Part shown: in pieces, positions 37,178 through 40,696 of the stretch
Layout of the letters: the number at the start of each line of letters is the position of its first letter
Position numbering within the stretch: position 1 is the stretch's first letter
Source: Patescibacteria group bacterium
GTDB lineage: Bacteria; Patescibacteriota; Minisyncoccia; Portnoybacterales; GWB1-42-6
Assembly (NCBI GenBank): GCA_022709865.1
Contig: JAKLIA010000001.1
Coordinates: 210,740 to 274,739 of the forward strand
Direction of reading: 5' to 3'
DNA: 64,000 bases
Position numbers and translations under genes: made by a program
Notes under the pieces: model-generated
Told to the model about the DNA's origin: nothing
What the model saw: the letters and a program-made list of their open reading frames with translations, nothing else
The model's database searches: none

Positions 37178-40100
37178 GTGTACAAAAATAGAAAAATAAA
37201 AATAAAGATTGCTATTTTTATTTTTGGAGCAATAATTATTAGCTCGGCCTTATGTTTTGGTCGGGCTTTAGCTTTTGATGACAAGACCACCCACCCAGCT
37301 TTAACGGAAAATATTGCGGAAGTTTATAATGCTAACTTTGAAATTAAATTAAGCGGCCAAGAAGTTGAATGGATAAAAAAGGGTAGCGTAGAAGAAGACA
37401 AATTCCCCCGACCGGCTAACCATTTTTTTGAGCCGAATCTTGGAATTGGTATGGCCGGCTTAGCTAACTCTAAATCTTGGGCACAAAGCGGTTCCTTGCA
37501 GAAAATTACCGGTGACTATTCTTGGCCGACAGCCTTAAGAGCATATGTTCAGGGAGATAAGGAAAAAGCTTTCATTGCCTTAGGGCACATTTTACATTTA
37601 TTAGAAGACAAGGCCGTTCCGGCGCATACTAGGCTAGACGAGCATTTAACCGAGGGTGATCCTTATGAGGGCTGGGCAGAGAGCCAGAAAGAAACAAGTT
37701 TTAATGTGGCGCCAAAGATTGTCAGTCAGTTAAATGAAGCTTTTGATGAACTAGCGCTTTATTCTAGTAAATATTTTTTGAGCAAAGACACCGTTAATTT
37801 AAATAAGGAAAATTTTAACGAGAAGTTAGTAAATAATAAAATTTATTTGTTTTCTAAAATTGGAAACGGGAAAGAATTTAAATTAGTTGAAAAAGTTTTT
37901 GTTTCTAATAATAAAGCTATCTTTATTTTTTCTGATTTAGTAAATTCCGACTACTTTTCTCTCCTCGCCCCAAAAGACGTATCTTATGGCGCAGGAGTAG
38001 TTAATCTATTTATTCAAGAAGGAGAAAGACAAGCCGAGATAGAAAGGAATAAAAACTGGTGGCAAAAAATCAAAGATAGTTTTTCTGCCAATGTTGGCGG
38101 TTCTTTGATGACCGGGTTGCCTTTGAGTATAGTTGAGGGAATTGTGCCGGCGCCGGCTAGCCAGTCAGCACGAGCTAGAATGGCGGAGGAAAGCTTATCT
38201 GTCCCTGTTGAATCATCGCCAATAGTGTTGCCGCCGAATGCGGTTGAGGCGCGGGAGAAAATAGCGGTTAGTTTGCCGAATAATACTGTTGAGGCGGAAG
38301 AAAAATTAGGCGGGGTTATTGAAGAAGAAAATGTTCCCAGCGAAGCGGAAGAGCCTTTTTTGATTACAGAAGAATCAAGTCCTGAACAAGCGATTTTGCC
38401 AACGCCAACTATTGTGCCCACTCCCTCGCCGAGCCCCACTGCCACGCCATCGTCTAGCGGTTCATCTTCTTCGTCGTCTACTAGCTCAAGTTCCGATACT
38501 TCCGCGCCGGAAACAACTATTATTTCGTCTCCTGCTGCCGCTGTTGCCACTACAACCGCGGTTTTTATTTTTGAATCTTCTAAAAGCAATTCAACTTTTA
38601 TGTGCGGTTTAGACAACGCAACTTCGACCGTATGCGAATCGCCTCAAGAGTATTTAAATCTAGCTGAGAGCAGTCATAGTTTTAAGGTGAGCGCTAAAGA
38701 TGCGGTGGGCAACGAAGATACTTCGCCGGCAGAATATTCTTGGAGCGTTGATTTAACTTCGCCAAGCTTAACTAATATTTCATCTTTGCCGACTAGAGCT
38801 GCCGCAACTATTTTATGGACAAGCAGCGAAGCCGGGATTTTTCAGGCCGAATATGGCACAACAACCAGTTATGGATTATTATCGGCCACGACCACCGCTA
38901 CCAATTTAAGTTTGTCCTCTCTGGATTTTGGTGCGACCTATCATTTTAGGATTTTAGGAGAAGATAGCGCAGGCAACGCAACTACTAGCGATGATCATAT
39001 TTTTACTACTTCTAATCAAGCGGAGAGCATTGTTATAAGCGAAGTTCAGTTGGCTGGTGCTACTGCGGCAGATGAGTTTGTGGAATTATATAATCCAACA
39101 AGTTCGGATATTAATTTGTTGGGTTGGCGATTAACTAAAAAATCAGCTACCGGCTCAACTACCAGTAATCTTTTAACGTCTTTTCCTGATGTATTAATTC
39201 CGGCTCATGGATATTTTTTAATATCCCATCCAACGGATTATGACGGCGCGGTTCCCGCAGATGCAGTTTATTCCACGACTTCTTCATTAGCCGATGACAA
39301 TACTCTAATTTTATACAGCGATGCTGGCGAAACGGTTATCGACTTGGTTGGTTTGGGCGCAGCGGTAAACTTTGAATCTGCAGCGGTTGGCAATCCATTA
39401 GATAATCAATCAATTGAAAGATTAGCTCATTCTACTTCCACGGCCGCGTTATTATCTTCTGGCGAGCATAAATGGCAGGGGAATGGTTATGATAGCAATA
39501 ATAATTTAGTTGATTTTATCGCGCAGCCAAATCCCGGTCCGCAAAACTCGTTAATGTTAACCGAACCAAGAACTAGTTGGCCGGTTTTGGCTTCTTCGGT
39601 CTGGCCAACTTGGCAAGGAAACTTGTTCCGCAATGGCCAATCAAATGCCTCGGCTTTGGCAACCAGCACCATGGCAATAAAATGGATGGCCACCACAACT
39701 GCGACTCATGATTTTAATTCTCGCCCAATTTTGGATAGTAGTGGAAATATCTATATTGGTCGCGCTGATGGCCTAGCAAAATATTCATCAAGCGGTAATT
39801 TGATTTGGCTTTATGATAGCGGGGCGATCTATACGGTTCCGCTGATTGCTTCTGACGGCACGATTTATTTTCGTGGCTCAGGTGCGTTGTTTTCAATCAA
39901 TCAAGATGGGCAATTGAAGTGGAAATATAATTTAAGCGAAACAGTGGCTAGTAATGCCGCGATAGGGATTTTGTCTGACGGCGTAATTATTACTCAGTCA
40001 TCTGAAAAAGTTTACGCCATAAACCCAGATGCAACTCTTGAATGGTTTTTTGATCCTGGTCGCGCAATGATAACGTCTAATGCCATTGGTTCCTTTGTTA

Positions 40101-40696
40101 TTGATTCAGCAGACAACATTTATATTAATATAGATGATTATATTTATGCGTTGAATAAAAATGGCGCAAAGATTTGGGAAAAAACATATGGCGAAAGCTA
40201 TTCGTCTTTAGCTATGGGAACAGATAATACTTTGTATGTTGCTGCGGCCAGCTGGGTTAGCGGTGCCTTTCAGGGCGGTTTTTATGCGCTGGATTCAGCG
40301 AATGGAGAGATTAAGTGGTCCGATATTACCGGATTTAATAATCATGCGGATTGGTCAGCGGCTATTGATTCATCAAATAAAGTTTACCCGATTATATTTT
40401 TTGGCGGCGCCTGGGTATCTGGCAGAAAGGTGCAATCTTATAATGCCTCAAGCACGCCGGAATGGTCTAGCTCAATAGATAGCTCGTATTTAGCATCGCC
40501 AATTATAACTAGCGATGGAAAGATTTATTTAGCAGATGATAAAACAATAAAAACTTTTGACGCTGTTAGCGGTGCGTTGCTTGGTAGTTTTAGTGTGCCC
40601 GATAATCAAACCCTGTATAATTATTTTGGCGCGGTCGGGGCGGATGGGATAATCTATACGGCTAACAACACAACGCTATATGCGATAGATGATTAA
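37178..40696 (+). CDS. Large secreted multidomain protein: Zn-dependent phospholipase C-like domain, S/T/P-rich linker, lamin-tail domain (LTD) and PQQ-like beta-propeller
   Basis: Signal/transmembrane at the N-terminus. THPALTEN...ALGHILHLLEDKAVPAH resembles the zinc-ligand motifs of alpha-toxin-type phospholipase C. A low-complexity PTPSPSPTATPSSSGSSSSSS linker follows. ISEVQLAGATAADEFVELYNPTSSDINLLGWRL is the LTD signature. The C-terminal repeated xGxIYxG / DGxxxW units fit PQQ/BamB-like propeller blades. Confidence 0.7.
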   Translation: MYKNRKIKIKIAIFIFGAIIISSALCFGRALAFDDKTTHPALTENIAEVYNANFEIKLSGQEVEWIKKGSVEEDKFPRPANHFFEPNLGIGMAGLANSKSWAQSGSLQKITGDYSWPTALRAYVQGDKEKAFIALGHILHLLEDKAVPAHTRLDEHLTEGDPYEGWAESQKETSFNVAPKIVSQLNEAFDELALYSSKYFLSKDTVNLNKENFNEKLVNNKIYLFSKIGNGKEFKLVEKVFVSNNKAIFIFSDLVNSDYFSLLAPKDVSYGAGVVNLFIQEGERQAEIERNKNWWQKIKDSFSANVGGSLMTGLPLSIVEGIVPAPASQSARARMAEESLSVPVESSPIVLPPNAVEAREKIAVSLPNNTVEAEEKLGGVIEEENVPSEAEEPFLITEESSPEQAILPTPTIVPTPSPSPTATPSSSGSSSSSSTSSSSDTSAPETTIISSPAAAVATTTAVFIFESSKSNSTFMCGLDNATSTVCESPQEYLNLAESSHSFKVSAKDAVGNEDTSPAEYSWSVDLTSPSLTNISSLPTRAAATILWTSSEAGIFQAEYGTTTSYGLLSATTTATNLSLSSLDFGATYHFRILGEDSAGNATTSDDHIFTTSNQAESIVISEVQLAGATAADEFVELYNPTSSDINLLGWRLTKKSATGSTTSNLLTSFPDVLIPAHGYFLISHPTDYDGAVPADAVYSTTSSLADDNTLILYSDAGETVIDLVGLGAAVNFESAAVGNPLDNQSIERLAHSTSTAALLSSGEHKWQGNGYDSNNNLVDFIAQPNPGPQNSLMLTEPRTSWPVLASSVWPTWQGNLFRNGQSNASALATSTMAIKWMATTTATHDFNSRPILDSSGNIYIGRADGLAKYSSSGNLIWLYDSGAIYTVPLIASDGTIYFRGSGALFSINQDGQLKWKYNLSETVASNAAIGILSDGVIITQSSEKVYAINPDATLEWFFDPGRAMITSNAIGSFVIDSADNIYINIDDYIYALNKNGAKIWEKTYGESYSSLAMGTDNTLYVAAASWVSGAFQGGFYALDSANGEIKWSDITGFNNHADWSAAIDSSNKVYPIIFFGGAWVSGRKVQSYNASSTPEWSSSIDSSYLASPIITSDGKIYLADDKTIKTFDAVSGALLGSFSVPDNQTLYNYFGAVGADGIIYTANNTTLYAIDD

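What the first reader, a model, noticed from the sequence alone, without database searches (positions are those of the whole stretch)
37178..40696. 1172-aa secreted protein fusing a phospholipase C-like zinc domain, a lamin-tail domain and a PQQ beta-propeller
The N-terminal domain carries the zinc-ligand pattern of alpha-toxin-type Zn-dependent phospholipase C / P1-nuclease folds (THP...; LGHILHLLEDKAVPAH). A disordered S/T/P linker follows, possibly O-glycosylated by the adjacent locus. Then comes a textbook LTD signature (ISEVQLAGATAADEFVELYNP...LLGWRL) and a C-terminal multi-blade propeller. A membrane-active or nucleic-acid-active enzymatic head on a surface-adhesion scaffold, placed next to the glycan locus, is a strong candidate for an episymbiont-host interaction factor. 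The 174-aa membrane-anchored ORF at 36582 directly upstream may be a partner or chaperone.
Basis: partly seen in the sequence, partly recalled or inferred. Interest (0 to 1): 0.7.

Follow-up and report, generated by a model that had tools for sequence, protein, structure and literature searches.

The report
CPR zinc phospholipase-like enzyme plus partner
The 1172-residue exported protein really does carry a three-zinc phospholipase-C-type head on a long stalk, and with the small membrane-anchored gene just upstream it forms a two-gene unit found throughout the ultrasmall Patescibacteria, making it a testable candidate for how these lipid-dependent bacteria attack or harvest neighbouring cells.

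Summary
The ORF and all three domain calls are real. LTD (E 4.7e-15) and a BamB/PQQ_2-type propeller (E 1.3e-12) pass Pfam thresholds.

New here: the upstream 174-aa ORF is an obligate partner, a membrane-anchored NTF2-like protein. It lies directly upstream in 82/82 testable genome loci. In the reverse test, 19/22 partner loci have the enzyme downstream. No other neighbour is conserved, and the sialic-acid-type glycan locus link is absent (0/86).

The head plus LTD is constant. The C-terminal module varies (propeller, beta-helix, SNase, LamG). All lineage-named relatives but one are Patescibacteria, and none is annotated as a phospholipase.

Best reading: an exported tri-zinc phosphodiesterase, most likely a phospholipase C acting on neighbouring or host membranes, with the partner as self-protection or lipid receiver. 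The substrate is unproven. This is a new variant of a known kind.

The parts
36582..37106 (+). Partner gene: 174-aa type II membrane-anchored (N-in, KKK then TM helix) extracytoplasmic NTF2-like protein
37178..40696 (+). Whole ORF, 1172 aa, GTG start, stop at 40694-40696
   Evidence: An identical 1172-aa protein is present in the public collection, unnamed.
37178..37273 (+). Sec signal peptide, aa 1-32 (MYKNRKIKIK / hydrophobic core / ALA|F33)
   Evidence: Hydrophobicity and sequence. Across 160 relatives: -3 is V/A/S/I/G in 148, -1 is S/A/G/C in 153, +1 is Y/F/W in 159. Cleavage is inferred by rule; it was not predicted with a dedicated tool.
37274..38077 (+). Zinc phospholipase-C-fold catalytic head, aa 33-300. 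Candidate ligands: F33 N-terminus, H39, D74, H82, H140, D144, H150, H156, E164. Has a family-specific four-strand beta insertion at aa 214-250.
38078..38542 (+). Low-complexity S/T/P/A/E-rich linker, aa 301-455
   Evidence: 52% S+T+P+A, no Cys, net acidic.
38543..39007 (+). Two Ig-like/FN3-like beta-sandwich spacer domains, aa 456-610 (weak calls)
   Evidence: Big_3_3 E 4.6e-4, Big_13 E 5.5e-3, fn3 and Pur_ac_phosph_N E about 0.05-0.07 on the excised segment. Homologous segment present in relatives. Big_13 and fn3 pass in 8 and 5 of 38 relatives.
39011..39352 (+). Lamin tail domain (LTD), aa 612-725
   Evidence: PF00932 E 4.7e-15, above the gathering score. LTD present in 34/38 full-length relatives.
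39365..39667 (+). Conserved post-LTD segment, aa 730-830 (GNGxDSxxNxxDF...PxPQNS)
   Evidence: Matched by phmmer in about 50 of 159 relatives. Conserved columns in A2. No Pfam model.
39668..40693 (+). C-terminal BamB-like PQQ_2 repeat beta-propeller, aa 831-1172. This is the variable module of the family.
   Evidence: PQQ_2 E 1.3e-12 (above cut-off), Beta-prop_ACSF4 E 4.6e-14, TIGR03300 BamB E 6.4e-12. Propeller present in 9/38 relatives. Others carry beta-helix (6), SNase (3), LamG or DUF5018.

Best explanation
Genes 36582-37106 and 37178-40696 form a two-gene module specific to Patescibacteria.

Shown:
- The large protein starts with a Sec-type signal sequence.
- A catalytic head follows. 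It has the all-alpha fold of bacterial zinc phospholipases C, and the family's metal-ligand residues are invariant.
- The head sits on a long stalk (S/T/P linker, Ig-like domains, LTD) that ends in a BamB-like propeller.
- Across relatives the head and LTD are constant, while the distal module is swapped.
- A membrane-anchored NTF2-like protein is always encoded immediately upstream.

Inferred:
- Signal peptidase I cuts after Ala32. Phe33 then becomes the free N-terminus and completes the tri-zinc site, as Trp1 does in PLC and P1 nuclease.
- The mature enzyme is an active phosphodiesterase displayed outside the cell. It most likely cleaves phospholipid head groups (PLC-type, yielding diacylglycerol) in the membrane of a neighbouring or host cell.
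- The variable distal module and the LTD supply target binding.
- The partner's NTF2 domain sits on the outer face of the producer's own membrane. It either shields that membrane from the enzyme (immunity or inhibitor) or receives the hydrophobic product.

The confidence of 0.5 is for the whole statement, including the phospholipid substrate. For the 'shown' part alone, together with the inference of an active tri-zinc phosphoesterase, I would give about 0.9.
For: Fold:
- In Foldseek the top 16 hits are all Zn-PLCs, and the nucleases are non-significant.
- The model is confident and template-free.

Sequence:
- The family profile hits 1AH7 (E 0.011). It aligns H82/H69, H140/H118, D144/D122, H150/H128 and E164/E146.
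- hhalign gives 95% probability, E 3.6e-8.
- PF00882 is hit by 9/14 and 15/38 relatives.
- The NHFYDP consensus matches SHFYDP in PLC.
- H39, E73, D74, R78, H82, W101, H140, D144, H150, D154, H156 and E164 are invariant in about 160 sequences that come mostly from separate 50%-identity clusters.

Processing:
- The -3/-1 small-residue rule holds, and +1 is aromatic in 159/160.

Module:
- The partner lies directly upstream on the same strand in 82/82 testable genome loci.
- 19/22 testable loci found through the partner have the enzyme gene downstream.
- No third gene family occurs in more than 14 of 86 loci.
- The partner fold is NTF2-like.

Lineage and setting:
- All lineage-named relatives but one (an Omnitrophota-labelled partial) are Patescibacteria.
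- These organisms lack lipid synthesis, and no lipid uptake or breakdown mechanism has been identified in them (PMC11665869).
- Bacterial LTDs typically accompany membrane-associated phosphoesterases (PMC6085458).
Against: - No activity data exist, so the substrate is an inference from fold proximity.
- The window protein itself does not reach any PF00882 score.
- The ninth ligand (PLC His142) aligns to Gly160 in the HMMER alignment. Its replacement by invariant H156 or D154 is assumed.
- The mature N-terminus would be Phe/Tyr, not Trp. Cleavage is predicted only by rule.
- LTD is best known next to extracellular nucleases. In addition, 3/38 relatives carry a staphylococcal-nuclease domain. 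Both facts fit a nucleic-acid role as well.
- Two invariant arginines (R78, R152) have no counterpart noted in PLC and could indicate a different anionic substrate.
- No cell-anchoring motif was found in the large protein.
- The host, localisation and expression are unknown.
Confidence: 0.5

Rival explanations
1. The head is an extracellular S1/P1-type nuclease or nucleotidase. It would scavenge nucleotides, or process DNA for the competence machinery, in nucleotide-auxotrophic Patescibacteria. The partner would be its inhibitor, analogous to B. subtilis NucA-Nin or Anabaena NucA-NuiA (recalled from memory).
For: - One relative gives a weak PF02265 hit (E 0.027).
- The short distance from the predicted N-terminus to the first His (residue 7 of the mature chain) resembles P1 nuclease (Trp1...His6, from memory) more than PLC (His14).
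- LTD is a frequent companion of extracellular nucleases (PMC6085458 and PMC8289736).
- SNase domains occur in 3/38 relatives, and some are named 'thermonuclease family protein'.
Against: - PF00882 is hit by 15/38 relatives against 1/14 for PF02265.
- The last ligand is Glu (E164) as in PLC, not Asp as in P1 (from memory).
- The HFYDP motif is PLC-like.
- An inhibitor placed outside the cell, on the producer's membrane, makes less sense for a nuclease.
Confidence: 0.2
2. The head is a phosphodiesterase for phosphate-containing envelope glycopolymers, such as teichoic-acid-like polymers or phosphoglycans, of the host or of the producer. The variable distal modules would act as carbohydrate-binding units. 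It would serve wall remodelling or phosphate harvesting.
For: - Distal modules in relatives are typical glycan-interacting folds: right-handed beta-helix/NosD, LamG, DUF5018, Ig-like.
- The invariant R78 and R152 suggest a polyanionic substrate.
- The gene sits among envelope-glycan genes in this window.
Against: - No known member of the PLC/S1-P1 fold acts on teichoic acids (my knowledge).
- The glycan-locus adjacency is not conserved (0/86).
- A membrane-anchored NTF2 partner is not explained by this reading.
Confidence: 0.12
3. The protein is a non-catalytic adhesin. Its PLC-like head would be a degenerate binding domain, and the upstream ORF merely a co-transcribed envelope protein.
For: - The window protein fails the PF00882 model.
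- The His142 position is Gly.
- The architecture resembles surface adhesins, and one relative is named 'putative cell wall associated biofilm protein'.
Against: - Every other metal-ligand position is invariant across about 160 sequences that come mostly from separate 50%-identity clusters, and so is an extra His/Asp pair next to the gap. That pattern is expected for an active site, not for a decayed one.
- The strict gene pairing argues for a functional complex.
Confidence: 0.04

Closest known systems
Bacterial zinc-dependent phospholipases C (Pfam PF00882): B. cereus PC-PLC (1AH7), Listeria PlcB (8CQM), clostridial alpha-toxin N-domain (1OLP, 1CA1)
   Same: - The HFYDP and H-x3-D-x5-H motifs and the terminal Glu align.
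- Exported by Sec.
- The predicted mature N-terminus is an aromatic residue placed to close the zinc site.
   Different: - Only 16-17% identity, and the window protein scores below any PF00882 threshold.
- Phe/Tyr replaces Trp1.
- The first His is only 6 residues from the N-terminus.
- The PLC His142 position is Gly, with an invariant D154-x-H156 upstream instead.
- Extra invariant R78, R152 and W101.
- A four-strand beta insertion at aa 214-250.
- No propeptide and no PLAT/C2 domain.
- Instead it has about 870 residues of linker, Ig-like domains, LTD and a swappable distal module, plus an obligate NTF2-like partner gene.
- Confined to Patescibacteria.
S1/P1 nucleases (PF02265; 5FB9, 3W52, 8QJL)
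   Same: Same superfamily fold and tri-zinc chemistry. Short spacing between the N-terminal aromatic residue and the first His.
   Different: - HMM hit in only 1 of 14 relatives, at E 0.027.
- The final ligand is Glu, not Asp.
LTD-bearing extracellular phosphoesterases such as Shewanella ExeM (PMC6085458)
   Same: Sec-exported multidomain hydrolase that combines a phosphoesterase with a lamin tail domain. The LTD role is unknown and has been proposed to direct proteins to membranes.
   Different: - ExeM's catalytic domains are EEP and YhcR-type nucleases, not the PLC fold.
- Its LTD is N-terminal.
- It has a C-terminal hydrophobic anchor.
- It has no NTF2-like partner.
Secreted lipase/phospholipase effectors with extracytoplasmic immunity proteins (T6SS Tle-Tli pairs), and NTF2-fold immunity proteins of polymorphic toxin systems (recalled from memory, not tested)
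   Same: A membrane-damaging enzyme is encoded next to a small protein that sits in the producer's extracytoplasmic space. The NTF2 fold is used by some immunity proteins.
   Different: - Here the enzymatic domain is N-terminal and constant, and the variable part is the distal binding module.
- The partner is upstream.
- Export is by Sec, not a contact-dependent secretion system.
- No binding or inhibition has been shown.

Membership tests
Zinc-dependent phospholipase C (PF00882) | All-alpha PLC fold | tested here: met
   [not shown]
Zinc-dependent phospholipase C (PF00882) | Zinc ligands His69, His118, Asp122, His128, Glu146 (B. cereus numbering) | tested here: met
   Aligned to H82, H140, D144, H150 and E164 by hmmsearch. 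The first four are also aligned by hhalign. All are invariant in 159-160 of 160 relatives.
Zinc-dependent phospholipase C (PF00882) | Zinc ligands His14 and Asp55 | tested here: inconclusive
   H39 and D74 are invariant and lie in the expected order and helices. The local motif G-S-x3-D resembles G-I-x3-D in PLC. No alignment tool covered this stretch, and coordinates could not be inspected.
Zinc-dependent phospholipase C (PF00882) | Zinc ligand His142 | tested here: inconclusive
   The HMMER alignment puts G160 opposite His142. Invariant D154 and H156 lie 4-6 residues upstream in a shortened loop and could substitute. Geometry was not measurable.
Zinc-dependent phospholipase C (PF00882) | Free N-terminal aromatic residue (Trp1) created by processing, ligating zinc through its amine and carbonyl | tested here: inconclusive
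   A predicted SPase I site, ALA|F33. Across 160 relatives: +1 is Y/F/W in 159, -1 is small in 153, -3 is small or aliphatic in 148. Cleavage was not predicted with a dedicated tool and has not been observed. The residue is Phe/Tyr, not Trp.
Zinc-dependent phospholipase C (PF00882) | Score above the Pfam model's threshold | tested here: not met
   No PF00882 hit for the window protein at E<=10. Relatives hit it at best at E 2e-6 (9/14, 15/38).
Zinc-dependent phospholipase C (PF00882) | Phospholipid phosphodiesterase activity | not testable with these tools
   Needs an enzyme assay.
S1/P1 nuclease (PF02265) | Closest fold and HMM match | tested here: not met
   [not shown]
Lamin tail domain (PF00932) | HMM score above the gathering threshold | tested here: met
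   56.4 bits against 34.3, E 4.7e-15, aa 612-725.
PQQ_2 / BamB-like beta-propeller (PF13360) | HMM score above the gathering threshold | tested here: met
   48.3 bits against 27.6, aa 845-1048. TIGR03300 BamB E 6.4e-12 but far below its equivalog cut-off, so this is not BamB itself.
PQQ-dependent dehydrogenases | PQQ/metal-binding quinoprotein propeller (PF01011-type) | tested here: not met
   No PF01011 hit for the window protein.
NTF2-like superfamily (partner ORF) | Cone-shaped alpha+beta NTF2 fold | tested here: met
   [not shown]
Polymorphic toxin / effector-immunity pair | Variable C-terminal toxin domain with a cognate immunity gene immediately downstream | tested here: not met
   The catalytic domain is N-terminal and constant, the variable part is non-catalytic in most members, and the partner is upstream.

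The most novel reading that the evidence does not exclude
The module is the missing lipid-acquisition device of Patescibacteria. The stalked PLC head would reach the host membrane and release diacylglycerol. The membrane-anchored NTF2-like partner would capture that lipid in its hydrophobic cone and deliver it to the symbiont's own membrane. The swappable distal module would set host range.
Probability: 0.15. Interest if true: 0.85.

Novelty: new variant of a known kind. Interest (0 to 1): 0.6.

Why it matters
Patescibacteria (CPR) make up a large share of bacterial diversity. They lack lipid and nucleotide synthesis and live on other cells. [quoted passage not shown]

This work defines a large family specific to that lineage: 1061 clusters at 50% identity with E<=1e-30. 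Its head has an apparently intact tri-zinc phospholipase-C-type active site. Public names call these proteins only 'hypothetical' or 'lamin tail domain-containing'.

The family is strictly paired with an NTF2-like membrane protein that no database describes. That gives experimenters two small soluble domains to express and assay, plus a clear set of ligand mutants. It also gives a marker whose variable distal module may track host specificity.

Tried and rejected
- Direct Pfam, NCBIfam and PDB sequence searches with the window N-domain gave nothing useful. The PLC relationship only appeared through homologues, profiles and the predicted fold.
- Looking up the source contig failed for the window protein and for the 99%-identical partner P0160. 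The window's organism is therefore inferred only from its relatives.
- The afdb50 fold library was unavailable.
- The promoter/terminator scan was not above shuffled expectation and is uninformative. No terminator-like site lies between the two genes.
- Link to the nonulosonic-acid locus: rejected, 0/86 loci. ArsR, the B12-radical-SAM gene and 2-oxoacid:ferredoxin oxidoreductase are also not conserved neighbours (4, 1 and 1 of 86).
- Quinoprotein reading of the propeller: rejected, because only BamB-type PQQ_2 repeats are present.
- Lipoprotein reading: rejected. Leu precedes Cys26, which does not fit a lipobox, and the Cys is not conserved.
- Classic polymorphic-toxin reading: rejected on architecture.
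- Literature searches combining Patescibacteria/Parcubacteria with phospholipase C, LTD or NTF2 found no description of this family.
- Zinc-site geometry could not be measured, because model coordinates are not exposed to the script environment.
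Full report
**1. The observation**

The region holds one long ORF, 37178-40696 on the + strand, GTG start, 1172 codons. An identical 1172-aa protein exists, unnamed, in the public collection.

- Pfam places a lamin tail domain at aa 612-725 (E 4.7e-15, above threshold).
- It places a PQQ_2/BamB-type repeat propeller at aa 845-1048 (E 1.3e-12, above threshold). NCBIfam agrees on the propeller.
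- Residues 301-455 are 52% S/T/P/A and contain a long Ser run.
- The only strongly hydrophobic stretch is the N-terminal aa 6-34. It is preceded by a Lys/Arg-rich n-region and followed by ALA|FDD.
- Residues 456-610 give weak Ig-like/FN3 hits.
- The quoted motifs are present.

The description is therefore accurate. The N-domain alone gives no Pfam or PDB sequence hit, so the PLC call needed testing.

**2. The N-terminal head**

A word-indexed search found 13 relatives, all from Patescibacteria MAGs where a lineage is named. Four carry precomputed PF00882 hits.

*Sequence evidence*
- Scanning the aligned set individually, 9 of 14 hit Zn_dep_PLPC (best E 2e-6) and one weakly hit S1-P1_nuclease.
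- The family profile hits B. cereus PLC in the PDB (E 0.011). It aligns H82/His69, H140/His118, D144/Asp122, H150/His128 and E164/Glu146.
- hhalign against the 1AH7 sequence gives 95% probability, E 3.6e-8, over the core.

*Fold evidence*
- A template-free AlphaFold2 model built on the 14-sequence alignment is confident (pLDDT 84.7, pTM 0.80).
- Foldseek agrees: the top 16 chains are all Zn-PLCs, and the nucleases are non-significant.

**3. The active site and processing**

I aligned 160 sequences: the window protein, the 13 first relatives and the hits listed in the exhaustive search, which are mostly representatives of separate 50%-identity clusters.

- H39, E73, D74, R78, H82, W101, H140, D144, H150, D154, H156 and E164 are invariant. 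R152 is present in 157.
- Eight of the nine PLC ligands have an invariant counterpart. Five are matched by alignment and the N-terminal aromatic residue by predicted processing. H39 and D74 are matched only by order, secondary structure and local motif.
- The ninth, His142, aligns to Gly160. An invariant D154-x-H156 sits in a shortened loop just upstream and probably substitutes.
- The residue before the conserved aromatic at position 33 is S/A/G/C in 153 of 160. Position -3 is V/A/S/I/G in 148. Position 33 itself is Y/F/W in 159.
- That is the signal peptidase I pattern. It would make the aromatic residue the free N-terminus, exactly the arrangement by which Trp1 ligates zinc in PLC and P1 nuclease (established knowledge of those families).

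I take this as good evidence for an exported, processed and catalytically competent tri-zinc phosphoesterase.

**4. Size and architecture of the family**

- An exhaustive profile search of 1.84 billion cluster representatives found 6982 proteins at E<=1e-3 and 1061 at E<=1e-30. Most of the top 150 are 1000-1700 aa long.
- By phmmer, 103 of 159 carry a recognisable LTD. Seven share the entire window architecture, including the propeller.
- Pfam on 38 full-length members gives:
  - LTD in 34.
  - Zn_dep_PLPC in 15.
  - PQQ_2 in 9.
  - Beta_helix in 6.
  - fn3 in 5 and Big_13 in 8.
  - SNase in 3.
  - LamG or DUF5018 in one or two.
- The head plus LTD is thus the constant core, and the distal module is interchangeable.
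- A second word-indexed search with a broader alignment listed 175 proteins. Every lineage name is a Patescibacteria group (Falkow-, Portnoy-, Magasanik-, Azam-, Wolfe-bacteria, Paceibacterota, Parcubacteria), except one partial Omnitrophota-labelled fragment.
- Source names are 'hypothetical', 'lamin tail domain-containing', 'thermonuclease family', 'LamG-like' and the like. None says phospholipase.

**5. The partner**

In the first four related contigs a 160-190-aa ORF lay directly upstream and aligned with the window's 174-aa ORF. The same holds in a distant Harrisonbacteria locus, where the downstream 1565-aa 'LTD' protein matches the head profile at E 7e-86.

*Forward test.* A scan of one genome per GTDB species with the head alignment gave 80 loci.
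- Most titles name Patescibacteria lineages.
- 20 are titled uncultured Saccharibacteria, 7 Gammaproteobacteria, 1 Omnitrophota and 1 Dehalococcoidales. Most of these titles come from automatically labelled TPA bins and two sit on very short contigs. I did not verify them.
- In all 82 loci with at least 700 bp upstream, including the six fetched earlier, the partner profile hits an ORF on the same strand ending just before the head. The gap is mostly under 100 bp.

*Reverse test.* Of 22 testable metagenome loci found through the partner, 19 have the head gene immediately downstream, and one more has it 1.6 kb away.

*Other neighbours.* All-against-all clustering of ORFs in the 86 loci finds only these two families conserved. 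The next most frequent family occurs in 14 loci.

*The partner itself*
- The profile search found 403 homologues and no curated family.
- Members weakly hit DUF4878 and MecA_N, both NTF2-like.
- The AF2 model (pLDDT 92) is a long N-terminal helix followed by an alpha+beta cone.
- With KKK before the helix and no cleavage motif, the positive-inside rule predicts an N-in signal anchor with the NTF2 domain outside the cell.
- Some loci carry two or three partner copies or tandem modules.

**6. What is not linked**

- The upstream locus 28362-36114 is a nonulosonic (sialic-like) acid pathway.
- NeuB, NeuC-like and CMP-transferase homologues occur near the module in 0 of 86 loci.
- ArsR occurs in 4, the B12-radical-SAM gene in 1 and the oxidoreductase in 1.
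- The proposed coupling to the glycan locus is therefore a local coincidence. Glycosylation of the linker remains untestable here.

**7. Mechanism**

*Shown*
- A Sec-type leader.
- A PLC fold with conserved ligands.
- A stalk ending in a variable distal module.
- An obligate extracytoplasmic NTF2-like partner.
- Restriction to Patescibacteria.

*Inferred*
- Signal peptidase exposes Phe33, which completes the metal site.
- The enzyme works outside the cell as a phosphodiesterase.
- Fold and motif proximity make phospholipid head-group cleavage the most likely chemistry. I put this at roughly 0.5.
- The rivals are nucleic acid or nucleotide hydrolysis (about 0.2) and glycopolymer phosphodiester cleavage (about 0.12). 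The first is favoured by the LTD and SNase associations described for extracellular nucleases in PMC6085458 and PMC8289736.
- The partner's position on the producer's outer membrane face fits two roles: protection of the producer's own bilayer, or capture of a hydrophobic product. Nothing here discriminates between them.
- A host-directed role fits published views. Patescibacteria lack lipid synthesis, have no identified lipid acquisition route, and may use phospholipases to breach host envelopes (PMC11665869; PMC12455944). It is not demonstrated.

**8. Comparison and novelty**

The head is a divergent branch of the zinc PLC / S1-P1 superfamily and is structurally nearest to the PLCs. It departs from the canonical family in several ways:
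- The window protein fails the Pfam model's own threshold.
- The N-terminal residue differs (Phe/Tyr for Trp).
- One ligand position differs (Gly160 opposite His142).
- It has a beta insertion.
- It carries the LTD-plus-variable-module architecture.
- It has an obligate NTF2-like partner.

I found no paper describing it. I rate it a new variant of a known kind. It is of real interest to people working on CPR symbiosis, because it turns an open question into a direct assay. The substrate and biological role remain unproven.

Noticed in passing
window 23607-25211 and 40772-42385: Two B12-binding radical SAM genes are 82% identical at the protein level, and nearly identical over the first 250 residues. 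They lie 17 kb apart and bracket the glycan locus and the PLC module. Best NCBIfam similarities are to RiPP/BchE-type methyltransferases, all far below cut-offs. This looks like a recent duplication or gene conversion.
   Followed up: partly
window 28362-36114: A complete-looking nonulosonic (sialic/legionaminic/pseudaminic-type) acid pathway: FkbH-like, aminoglycoside-N-acetyltransferase-like, NeuB, hydrolysing UDP-GlcNAc 2-epimerase, SDR epimerase, PseB-like dehydratase and CMP-transferase. It is not conserved next to the module elsewhere (0/86 loci).
   Followed up: partly
window 36136-36402: A small ArsR-family winged-helix regulator sits just upstream of the partner gene, with a terminator-like hairpin at 36523-36539 between them. 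An ArsR homologue is near the module in only 4 of 86 loci.
   Followed up: partly
window 16778-18616, 22078-23592, 46938-48761: Three large ORFs (612, 504 and 607 aa) have no Pfam match at E<=1e-5. They sit among glycosyltransferase, ABC-exporter and sugar-transferase genes.
   Followed up: no
window 1-64000: Almost every ORF over 100 aa that is not nested in another is on the + strand (45498-46817 is the exception). GC skew is positive in every 2-kb bin. This is consistent with one replichore of a small genome. There are no tRNA genes in 64 kb. SecA (54940-57534) and SecD/F (59266-61637) lie downstream.
   Followed up: no
L004 2078-6016: In one relative the PLC head (515 aa) and the LTD/beta-helix tail (795 aa) are separated by a single in-frame TAG inside the low-complexity linker. 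This could be a real split gene, a pseudogene or a sequencing error. In L002 the apparent splits are assembly gaps (N runs).
   Followed up: partly
L001 1034-5047: Two partner-plus-head modules lie in tandem on one contig, separated by a Y1 (IS200-type) transposase gene. L003/L013 have two partner copies and L066 has three ahead of one head gene.
   Followed up: partly
L007-L086 (record titles): Seven loci are titled 'uncultured Gammaproteobacteria' and 20 'uncultured Candidatus Saccharibacteria', all from automated TPA bin series. One each is titled Omnitrophota and Dehalococcoidales, on contigs of about 2 kb. All carry the same two-gene module at 30-44% identity to the window, so these labels are probably unreliable.
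   Followed up: no
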